The position numbers were made by a program, and so were the translations under genes. Of a stretch of DNA of 36,007 nucleotides, positions 4,242 through 5,680 are shown piece after piece. The notes below the pieces were generated by a model that made no database searches, was not told the origin of the DNA, and saw only the letters and a list, made by a program, of their open reading frames with translations. The DNA lies in assembly GCA_963830365.1 (NCBI GenBank), contig CAWHMU010000002.1, positions 1 through 36,007 of the forward strand, read 5' to 3'. Origin of the DNA: an uncultured Chlamydiae bacterium (lineage in GTDB: Bacteria > Chlamydiota > Chlamydiia > Chlamydiales > Parachlamydiaceae). Numbering within the stretch: position 1 is the first letter of the stretch; the number at the start of each line of letters is the position of its first letter.

Positions 4242-5429
4242 ATGGATAGACGCTTTACGGAAATCTTGAGTAGCCAGCTGGCCGATTTGAAGACTAAGGG
4301 GCTGTACAAGGAAGAAAGGATCATCACCTCCTCTCAAAGCGCGCATATCTGTATTGACGATGGAAAAGACGTGCTAAATTTATGCGCCAACAATTATCTT
4401 GGTCTGGCCGATGATGCCGAAGTGATTCAGGCGGCTAAAGCCGGTTTGGATAGGTATGGCTTCGGCATGGCATCGGTGCGCTTCATCTGCGGCACACAGA
4501 CCGTGCATAAGCGGCTTGAGGCGCGCCTGGCCTGTTTTCTCGGCACGGAAGATGCCATTTTATATTCATCGTGTTTTGATGCCAATGGCGGACTCTTTGA
4601 GACGTTGCTCGGGGCCGACGATGCCGTCATCAGCGATGCGCTCAACCATGCGAGCATCATCGACGGCATCAGGCTGTGCAAGGCCGAAAGGCTGCGTTAC
4701 CATAATAGCGACATGGCGGAGCTGGAAAAGCTGCTGCAGGCGTCAGCCGGCAAACGTTTCCGGCTGATTGCCACCGACGGCGTATTTTCGATGGATGGCA
4801 GCATTGCCAATCTGCCGGCTATCTGCGATTTGGCCGATCGTTACCAGTCGCTGGTGATGATCGACGACTGCCATGCCGTCGGCTTCATGGGCGAGCATGG
4901 ACGGGGCACGCCGGAGTATTGCGGCGTGATGGGGCGTGTCGATATCATCACCGGTACGCTGGGTAAAGCGCTGGGAGGCGCTGCCGGCGGTTACATCACC
5001 GGTAAACGCGAAATTATTGAATGGTTGAGACAGCGTTCACGCCCCTATCTTTTTTCTAATGCGCTTTCGCCAAGTATCGCCGCGGCCACCTTGTGTGTGC
5101 TGGATAAAATGGCCTCCGGACAGGCGTTGCGGGAGCGCCTGCATGAAAACAGCCGCAATTTCCGGCGGAAATTGACAGCTTTGGGCTTTAAGCTTGTGCC
5201 GGGAGACCATCCGATTATCCCCGTTATGCTTGGCGAGGCGCTTTTGGCGCAAACCTTTGCCGCCCGCATGCTTGAACACGGCATCTATGTGATCGGCTTC
5301 AGCTACCCTGTTGTGCCCGAGGGCAAAGCGCGTATCCGCACGCAGATGTCTGCCATCCATACCCGCGCTGATATCGACCGGGCAGTGGCGGCTTTTGAAA
5401 AGGTTGGAAAGGCGTTGGGAGTGATTTAA
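4242..5429 (+). CDS. kbl: glycine C-acetyltransferase (2-amino-3-ketobutyrate CoA ligase)
   Basis: [36 protein letters not shown] (PLP Lys), [11 protein letters not shown]; adjacent tdh. Confidence 0.97.
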
Positions 5430-5460
5430 AAGGCATAGACTTTAAAGAGCCTATGCCTTT
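5429..5460. terminator. bidirectional hairpin terminator
   Basis: AAAGGCATAG...CTATGCCTTT between convergent kbl and the micropeptide ORF. Confidence 0.6.
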
Positions 5461-5470
5461 ATGCCACCTG

Positions 5471-5551
5471 CTAGCTGCAGCAGGATTTACTTTTTGTTTT
5501 TTTAGCAGGCTTAGCTGCTTTTTTTATTGGTTTTTTGACTTTTAGTACCAT
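5471..5551 (-). CDS. 26-aa Lys-rich micropeptide MVLKVKKPIKKAAKPAKKTKSKSCCS
   Basis: AAGGAG SD 7 nt before ATG; stop 10 nt before terminator hairpin; histone-H1-like K/A/P composition. Confidence 0.7.
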   Translation of the reverse strand: MVLKVKKPIKKAAKPAKKTKSKSCCS

Positions 5552-5680
5552 GATGTTACTCCTTAGGTGTAAAATAAAAAACAAACACTAGCTAAAAAGC
5601 AAACCTCCTTAATCTAAGGATGATACAAAGTACTATAAAATGCAAATAAATATTTAAAAGGCAAACCACAAATGGGACTT

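What the first reader, a model, noticed from the sequence alone, without database searches (positions are those of the whole stretch)
5429..5567. Unannotated 26-aa polybasic micropeptide ending in Cys-Cys-Ser, splitting kbl-tdh
Seen: minus-strand AAGGAG-7nt-ATG, peptide MVLKVKKPIKKAAKPAKKTKSKSCCS (10 Lys, no acidic residue), and a hairpin shared with convergent kbl. Established: kbl-tdh is normally one operon; chlamydial nucleoid-condensing Hc1/Hc2 are K/A/P-rich; polybasic tails followed by terminal Cys are lipidation and membrane signals in Ras/Rab proteins. Inference: either an ultra-short, disulfide-linkable histone-like peptide for elementary-body DNA condensation or a lipidated mini-effector.
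Basis: partly seen in the sequence, partly recalled or inferred. Interest (0 to 1): 0.7.

Follow-up and report, generated by a model that had tools for sequence, protein, structure and literature searches.

The report
Conserved oligolysine micro-gene beside chlamydial tdh
A tiny gene for a 26-residue, lysine-rich peptide sits head-to-head with the threonine dehydrogenase gene in several distantly related environmental chlamydiae and evolves like a real protein gene; it likely makes a small positively charged peptide that binds DNA or RNA, while its cysteine tail is not a shared feature.

Summary
Observation confirmed: AAGGAG-7 nt-ATG, a 26-aa ORF (5551-5471, 10 Lys, no D/E) and a strong hairpin shared with kbl. 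It is a real gene family that gene callers miss. An SD-led, Lys-rich micro-ORF of 12-33 aa lies divergent from tdh in 5 of 53 other family genomes (4 genera) and one metagenome contig (two tandem copies); a sixth genome has it facing kbl. Background is 3 of 1,573 genes. In the three closest pairs pS is 0.81 and pN 0.16, with in-frame indels only. What is conserved is a net charge of about +7 to +10, not length or tail: 7 of 9 peptides end in KK and 6 of 9 lack Cys. So the lipidated-effector and disulfide readings fail as family properties. The element follows tdh, not a downstream gene, which argues against a leader peptide. Best reading (0.5): a stand-alone histone-H1-tail-like polycation that binds nucleic acid alongside Hc1, which all six genomes tested also encode. 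Transcription, translation, timing and binding are untested; tdh is a mid-cycle gene in Protochlamydia, so an elementary-body role is not shown.

The parts
5471..5551 (-). Micro-ORF, 26 aa, 10 Lys, net charge +10; member of a 12-33-aa oligolysine family divergent from tdh
5559..5564 (-). Shine-Dalgarno AAGGAG, 7 nt before ATG; an SD-like motif precedes all 9 family ORFs (it was part of the search filter)
5429..5460 (.). 13-bp hairpin, likely terminator for both the micro-gene and convergent kbl; short U-tails; the same 7-bp stem core occurs behind the L046 homologues
5467..5484 (.). 6-7-bp hairpin formed by the last codons (Ser-Cys-Cys-Ser-stop); terminator-like on the plus strand
5632..5637 (-). 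Candidate sigma66 -10 box (TATAGT, 80 nt before ATG); weak match, inferred only; no sigma54 box
   Evidence: one search found no promoter at its stricter threshold
4242..5429 (+). kbl, glycine C-acetyltransferase, convergent neighbour
5681..6706 (+). tdh, L-threonine 3-dehydrogenase, divergent neighbour with which the micro-gene travels

Best explanation
The ORF is a conserved micro-gene under protein-level selection that likely makes an unfolded, roughly +9 oligolysine peptide, which would bind DNA or RNA electrostatically, like a free-standing histone-H1 tail working beside Hc1. Shown: the ORF, SD and hairpin; homologues in the same slot; synonymous-biased change; constant charge over a 12-33-aa length range; Hc1 in the same genomes. 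Inferred: its own short transcript from a promoter back-to-back with tdh; translation; cytoplasmic location; nucleic-acid binding; a part in nucleoid compaction or in damping transcription and translation. The cysteines of 3 members would at most be an optional cross-link.
For: Synteny: 6 of 54 family tdh loci with at least 300 nt upstream (this genome included) carry the ORF on the opposite strand, 0 of 54 on the same strand. That is 5 of the 19 other loci where kbl is not tight against tdh. G069 and G074 were first found by patterns that ignore synteny. L046 has two tandem copies; G068 has one facing kbl. Background is 3 of 971 genes with free upstream space; binomial P for 4 or more of 19 is 3e-7. 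Coding signal: in three closest pairs, 37 of 50 aligned codons keep the residue and 15 of these use another codon; pS 0.81 against pN 0.16; one TCA/AGT serine switch; all gaps are whole codons. Net charge is +7 to +10 in 8 of 9 and +5 in the ninth. A strong 3' hairpin (at most 1 of 200 shuffles) follows 6 of 8 units. Composition and short words are shared with Hc1 and Hc2-like tails of the same family. Hc1 is present in this genome and in 5 of 5 other carriers tested. The Lys-rich C-terminus of Hc1 is its DNA-binding part, and Hc1 and Hc2 repress transcription (PMC2848022, passages). Precedent: Coxiella ScvA, a small peptide of the dormant form speculated to aid chromatin condensation (PMC13568565, passages).
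Against: No expression or binding data exist here. Low-complexity composition cannot tell DNA from RNA, ribosome, polyphosphate or anionic lipid as the partner. The ORF is missing from the tdh locus in 48 of 53 other family genomes, in 20 of 20 tdh loci of other families and in 67 of 68 metagenome loci (many have high GC and are probably not chlamydial). It is therefore not a universal chlamydial component at this locus. tdh is a mid-cycle gene in Protochlamydia (PMC5451489, passages). None of the 8 units has a sigma54 box (only 56 nt could be read for G068), whereas 4 of the 8 Hc2-like genes scanned do; nothing points to late expression. The filter was set after the first homologues were seen, and kin are not independent. 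pN/pS used raw counts on protein-guided alignments, which favours low pN.
Confidence: 0.5

Rival explanations
1. The peptide is a small basic ribosome- or RNA-associated factor, working like bS22, bTHX or eL41 (names and properties recalled, not from a call), rather than a nucleoid protein.
For: Size and charge overlap with those proteins (recalled). The start M-x-K/R-K-x-K is the most constant part. Hc2 binds RNA better than Hc1 and represses translation more strongly (PMC2848022, passages), so RNA is a natural partner for such tails.
Against: Length varies from 12 to 33 aa, and only M1, K4 and K6 are invariant among 6 aligned members, unlike a pocket-filling protein. No NCBIfam or Pfam match. 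None of the neighbours identified here is a translation gene.
Confidence: 0.2
2. It is a cis-acting leader or translation sensor: decoding of the Lys run controls read-through at the hairpin, or activity of the back-to-back tdh promoter, and the peptide itself is a by-product.
For: A leader would also conserve Lys codons. In G074, G044, G064 and G063 an acyl-CoA dehydrogenase gene follows on the same strand. The hairpin starts about 10-20 nt after the stop in most units. The tight link to tdh is otherwise unexplained.
Against: The next gene is convergent in this genome, G068 and L046, and unrelated in G069. Of 30 acyl-CoA dehydrogenase loci examined (of 37 found), only the 3 next to tdh have the ORF. 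L046 has two tandem copies, each with its own SD. Longer members keep non-Lys residues through synonymous change (RLKAGREKFR: 4 synonymous, 0 replacement changes).
Confidence: 0.12
3. One reading: a disulfide-linkable histone-like peptide whose Cys-Cys cross-links in the oxidised elementary body.
For: Cys pairs recur near the end in 3 of 9 members from separate lineages (CC here, CxC in G069 and L046b), and one non-syntenic look-alike ends KKSCW.
Against: 6 of 9 members have no Cys. Here the Cys codons are part of an RNA hairpin that scores as a plus-strand terminator, so they may be kept for the RNA.
Confidence: 0.08
4. One reading: a secreted, host-lipidated mini-effector.
For: A polybasic stretch before a terminal CCX; CCX and CXC are listed Rab prenylation motifs (PMC9141697, passages), and L046b ends CXC.
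Against: No CaaX box. Rab-type prenylation starts with REP binding the GTPase domain, which is absent. No signal peptide or hydrophobic stretch (GRAVY -0.63). 7 of 9 members end in KK.
Confidence: 0.03
5. A chance ORF in an A-rich spacer, or a non-coding RNA whose ORF is incidental.
For: A-runs give Lys in every frame (73, 50 and 43 Lys in frames 0, 1 and 2). The 5' region folds better than shuffles in 4 of 8 units.
Against: Synteny, SD, strand bias and pS far above pN. No Rfam match near a gathering score. The 5' region of this genome's unit is not unusually structured (z -0.2).
Confidence: 0.05

Closest known systems
Chlamydial histone H1-like proteins Hc1 (HctA; PF07432, NF051889) and Hc2 (HctB; PF07382)
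   Same: Lys/Ala/Pro/Val/Thr-rich with few or no acidic residues; shared short words (KKAAKPAKK, AKPAKK, KAKKAK) with Hc1 tails of relatives; same organisms.
   Different: 12-33 aa against 109-129 aa for the Hc1 proteins read out (130 aa here) and 165-237 aa for C. trachomatis Hc2. No N-terminal dimerisation domain, no repeat array, no profile match. It sits beside tdh and coexists with a full Hc1.
Coxiella burnetii ScvA
   Same: A very small peptide of an intracellular bacterium with a condensed dormant form, speculated to aid chromatin condensation (PMC13568565, passages; the 1996 paper was seen only as a reference title calling it unusually small and basic).
   Different: No sequence comparison was made and no homology is claimed. 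ScvA expression in the dormant form is documented; here timing is unknown.
Very small basic ribosomal proteins bS22, bTHX, eL41 (recalled)
   Same: Size and net charge (recalled).
   Different: Those are recalled to keep fixed length and sequence; this family keeps only charge, and matches no NCBIfam or Pfam model.
Rab/Ras C-terminal lipidation signals
   Same: Polybasic stretch followed by terminal CCX in this one member.
   Different: No GTPase domain, no CaaX box, no export signal; the motif is absent from most family members.

Membership tests
Hc1 (HctA) | Conserved N-terminal dimerisation domain (PF07432 / NF051889) | tested here: not met
   No match for the peptide; the genome's true Hc1 is on contig C45.
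Hc1 (HctA) | Lys-rich C-terminal region lacking acidic residues | tested here: met
   10 Lys, no D/E; composition and words shared with Hc1 tails; feature as described in PMC2848022.
Hc2 (HctB) | Long array of pentamers (two basic residues plus A/V/T/P); PF07382 match | tested here: not met
   At most two or three pentamer-like units; no Pfam match; no PF07382 match anywhere in this 82%-complete genome.
Hc1/Hc2 | Late expression, DNA binding and nucleoid condensation | not testable with these tools
   No RNA run holding the stretch was listed; binding needs experiment.
CaaX-prenylated proteins | Cys fourth from the C-terminus | tested here: not met
   The last four residues are S-C-C-S.
Rab-type prenylation substrates | Terminal CC/CXC/CCX motif | tested here: met
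   CCX here and CXC in L046b, but in only 2 of 9 members.
Rab-type prenylation substrates | GTPase domain recognised by REP | tested here: not met
   26-aa peptide with no domain; requirement from PMC9141697.
Attenuator leader peptides | A conserved same-strand downstream gene | tested here: not met
   Convergent neighbour in 3 of 8 loci, unrelated gene in 1, acyl-CoA dehydrogenase in 4; 27 of 30 dehydrogenase loci lack the ORF.
Attenuator leader peptides | Alternative antiterminator pairing between ORF and terminator | tested here: inconclusive
   Expected ORF-to-downstream pairs range from 0.1 to 17.6 with no common pattern.
Small basic ribosomal proteins (bS22, bTHX, eL41) | Fixed sequence matching a family model | tested here: not met
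   No NCBIfam or Pfam match; length 12-33 aa.
Small basic ribosomal proteins (bS22, bTHX, eL41) | Stoichiometric ribosome association | not testable with these tools
   Needs ribosome fractionation.
Known non-coding RNA families | Rfam match at gathering score | tested here: not met
   Best score 18.4 bits against a gathering score of 50; all 12 matches have E above 1.

The most novel reading that the evidence does not exclude
Environmental chlamydiae make ribosomal oligolysines of 12-33 residues as a gene-encoded polyamine or protamine: a third, minimal nucleoid-condensing agent beside Hc1 and Hc2, selected for a fixed charge of about +9. Its promoter is wired back-to-back with threonine catabolism, so that compaction would switch on as mid-cycle amino-acid breakdown switches off. 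Some lineages would add a redox cross-link through terminal cysteines.
Probability: 0.25. Interest if true: 0.72.

Novelty: new variant of a known kind. Interest (0 to 1): 0.47.

Why it matters
It shows a gene family below the size limit of gene callers in environmental chlamydiae, with good evolutionary evidence of translation. How chlamydiae compact the elementary-body nucleoid is still poorly understood (PMC6426960, passages). A 12-26-residue peptide is cheap to synthesise and test directly, and would define the smallest natural H1-tail unit. The kind of molecule is known (H1-like tails, ScvA), and unchecked AI notes describe similar oligolysine micro-genes in other phyla, so this is likely one instance of a wider overlooked class rather than a chlamydial invention.

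Tried and rejected
Direct homology searches with the peptide failed. The genome search over 73 family genomes gave only chance hits, the best at E 0.15, and missed the true homologues. phmmer against 1.84 billion representatives with the 37-aa open frame gave 0 hits. The ESM Atlas best score was 0.84, below the 0.9 lead level; an HC2 cluster at 0.77 is chance-level. The first look at 19 relatives with adjacent kbl-tdh found nothing and suggested a lineage-specific insertion; wider sampling overturned this. A K-rich...Cys-Cys-stop pattern was too loose, with thousands of matches. An order-wide pattern ending KK-stop matched 138 of 401 genomes, mostly out of frame; the listed matches were read by eye, 39 were not listed, and only G044 and two G037 copies were clear. 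The KVKK(P)IKKAA pattern over GTDB gave 71 loci, 21 in frame, and no convincing SD-led homologue. The terminator stem core matched 3 of 72 other genomes, none behind such an ORF, and one ends a long unrelated gene, so it is weak evidence alone. No RNA holder was listed. Two DNA runs hold only short pieces and give no usable variation over the ORF. My working idea that all units have 5' hairpins holds for only 4 of 8 and not for this genome. Replacement of Hc2 by the peptide is not supported: G063 and G069 carry both it and an Hc2-like protein. The tdh tree (quick method only, 13 of 69 inner branches strongly supported) shows carriers scattered, so gain or loss order cannot be stated. Literature searches found no description of this family: (0 papers), read as listings. 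Subscription journals and supplements were not seen; the supplements of PMC5451489 or of small-protein catalogues could bear on novelty and timing.

Full report
Observation. The feature is as described. On the minus strand AAGGAG (5564-5559) lies 7 nt before ATG 5551, and the frame closes at 5471, giving MVLKVKKPIKKAAKPAKKTKSKSCCS. kbl ends at 5429 and tdh starts at 5681. A 13-bp hairpin at 5429-5460 is far stronger than shuffles on both strands, though its U-tails are short and the terminator scan missed it. A second hairpin is made from the last codons and scores as a plus-strand terminator. The genome is chlamydial: it encodes HctA above the curated cut-off. The tools give no family name; I infer an environmental, Parachlamydiaceae-like family from genome sizes of mostly 2-3.5 Mb.

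Finding the family. Homology searches with so short and biased a query found nothing real. Homologues came from neighbourhood and pattern searches. Metagenome contig L046 (tdh 68.5% identical) carries two SD-led ORFs divergent from tdh, MAKKVKKIKKAATRELKK and MPKKSKPIKDKKGGSSGCGC, followed by a hairpin with the same stem core. Two synteny-blind SD-ATG-Lys patterns over 73 family genomes returned peptides in G069, G068 and G074 that proved to lie at kbl/tdh. I then read all 55 family tdh loci. Of the 54 with at least 300 nt upstream, 6 have the ORF on the opposite strand and none on the same strand: this genome, G074 (MVRKAKKAKKSKTKK), G069 (28 aa), G044 (12 aa, GTG start), G064 (MTKKKAKGKKVKK) and G063 (15 aa). 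G068 has a 33-aa member facing kbl near a contig end, with tdh at the start of another contig; adjacency is likely but not shown. In 34 of 55 genomes kbl lies within 120 nt of tdh, leaving no room. Among the 19 other readable loci, 5 are carriers, from 4 genera. With the same filter, 3 of 1,573 long genes of this genome (3 of 971 with free upstream space, tdh included) have such a neighbour; P for 4 or more of 19 is 3e-7. The filter was fixed after the first homologues were seen and kin are not independent, so the P value is a guide only. None was found at 20 tdh loci of other families, 16 of which have kbl within 41 nt, or at 67 of 68 metagenome loci.

It evolves as a protein. In the three closest pairs (G063/G064, G074/G044, G069/G068), 37 of 50 aligned codons keep the residue and 15 of those use a different codon. 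pS is 0.81 (23/28.5) and pN 0.16 (20/121.5). One serine switches TCA/AGT, Lys alternates AAA/AAG, and all length changes are whole codons. These are raw counts on protein-guided alignments, with the serine switch counted as three synonymous differences, so the ratio is flattered; the direction is clear. Shuffle tests of in-frame Lys content gave P from 0.0003 to 0.018 per ORF, but the ORFs were selected for Lys, so I give that little weight. I put translation at about 0.9; there is no expression data.

What is conserved. Length runs from 12 to 33 aa, yet net charge stays at +7 to +10 in 8 of 9 peptides. Only M1, K4 and K6 are invariant among 6 aligned members. Seven of 9 end in KK and 6 of 9 have no Cys. 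A strong 3' hairpin follows 6 of 8 units; a structured 5' region is significant in 4 of 8, not including this genome. No unit has a sigma54 box, and sigma66-like matches are weak and AT-rich. sigma28 is absent from environmental chlamydiae (PMC4652624, passages).

Leader or product. In four carriers an acyl-CoA dehydrogenase gene follows on the same strand, which raised a leader-peptide reading. But the ORF follows tdh: of 30 dehydrogenase loci examined, of 37 found, only the three beside tdh have it, and this genome's dehydrogenase lies on another contig without it. The next gene is convergent here, in G068 and in L046. A test for antiterminator pairing was inconclusive. An effect in cis on the tdh promoter remains possible.

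Mechanism. A peptide kept for charge alone, with no fold, no hydrophobic stretch and no export signal, most likely acts as a polycation inside the bacterium (inference). Its composition matches the Hc1 tails and Hc2-like proteins of the same family, and its central nonamer is a repeat unit of one Hc1 tail. The Lys-rich tail is the DNA-binding part of Hc1; Hc1 and Hc2 compact DNA and repress transcription, and Hc2 binds RNA more strongly (PMC2848022, passages). Carriers keep Hc1 (6 of 6 tested), so the peptide would be an addition, not a replacement. The family shows a range of stand-alone basic proteins from 56 to 124 aa down to these micro-forms. Against an elementary-body role: tdh peaks at mid-cycle in Protochlamydia (PMC5451489, passages), and nothing marks the promoter as late. 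In C. trachomatis hctB itself lacks a sigma54 promoter (PMC7482065, passages), so that absence is weak evidence. I give nucleic-acid polycation 0.5, ribosome or RNA factor 0.2, cis sensor 0.12, disulfide-dependent variant 0.08, non-coding 0.05 and lipidated effector 0.03.

Comparison and novelty. It works like an H1 tail but is not a member of Hc1 or Hc2: the N-terminal domain and the repeat array are absent. The nearest precedent in role is Coxiella ScvA (PMC13568565 and PMC6759588, passages); no homology is claimed. Rab-type lipidation fails on the missing GTPase domain (PMC9141697, passages) and on conservation. Eight literature searches listed no description of this family; subscription papers and supplements were not seen. 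Unchecked AI notes report similar oligolysine micro-genes in other phyla; I did not test them, and they lower uniqueness rather than add support. Verdict: a real, unannotated micro-gene family and a new variant of a known kind, with function inferred and not shown.

Noticed in passing
L050, minus strand, 121 nt upstream of tdh: A different SD-led 35-aa Lys/Gln/Pro/Asn-rich ORF with a terminator-like hairpin fills the same slot divergent from tdh. Not alignable to the family by eye; it may be a second small-protein type.
   Followed up: partly
L225 (G085) and L437 (G018): 30- and 34-aa polybasic ORFs with strong sigma54-type boxes lie just upstream of an Hc2-like gene carrying a TAEGW-K/R motif. 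Hc2-like genes of G015, G069, G004 and G018 also have sigma54-type boxes, suggesting sigma54 took over this control where sigma28 was lost.
   Followed up: partly
G000:C38:35531-35761 (L438 1032-1262, minus): 76-aa basic protein with the TAEGWKR motif, likely this genome's short Hc2-like protein; missed by PF07382 and NCBIfam.
   Followed up: partly
L200/L233 (G004), L393 and L435 (G037), L177 (G050), L122 (G322): Stand-alone SD-led polybasic micro-ORFs away from tdh: 27 aa ending KKSCW, two 19-aa copies, 24 aa and 41 aa. Relation to the tdh-linked family is unknown.
   Followed up: partly
G000 contigs C3 41305-41394, C33 81302-81406, C36 109931-110068 and 60424-60555, C42 102344-102490, C46 83377-83514: Six more small basic ORFs of 29-48 aa without an NCBIfam match; the C33 one has a close homologue in G015.
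   Followed up: partly
L420 (G078) and L378 (G076): Conserved 50-51-aa basic ORF starting MPLKKG, divergent from the acyl-CoA dehydrogenase gene and next to an Hc2-like gene.
   Followed up: no
L350 (G074), L234 (G069), L313 (G084), L349 (G060), L042, L044: The kbl-tdh junction is a frequent insertion site for unrelated genes, including an F-box-like ORF.
   Followed up: partly
window 6923-10815: A potABCD-like polyamine transporter operon follows tdh directly; a curious neighbour for a polycation gene, not seen as the downstream neighbour in the carriers whose flanks were read.
   Followed up: partly
window 22059-24281: 740-aa ORF with a protein-tyrosine phosphatase domain (PF00102, E 3.4e-18), a possible host-directed protein.
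   Followed up: no
window 5605-5620, minus strand: A second AAGGAG sits in a small hairpin 46 nt upstream of the SD, with no start codon at SD distance.
   Followed up: no
G084:C1:1165254-1166273 (L313): tdh has one internal TAA stop.
   Followed up: no
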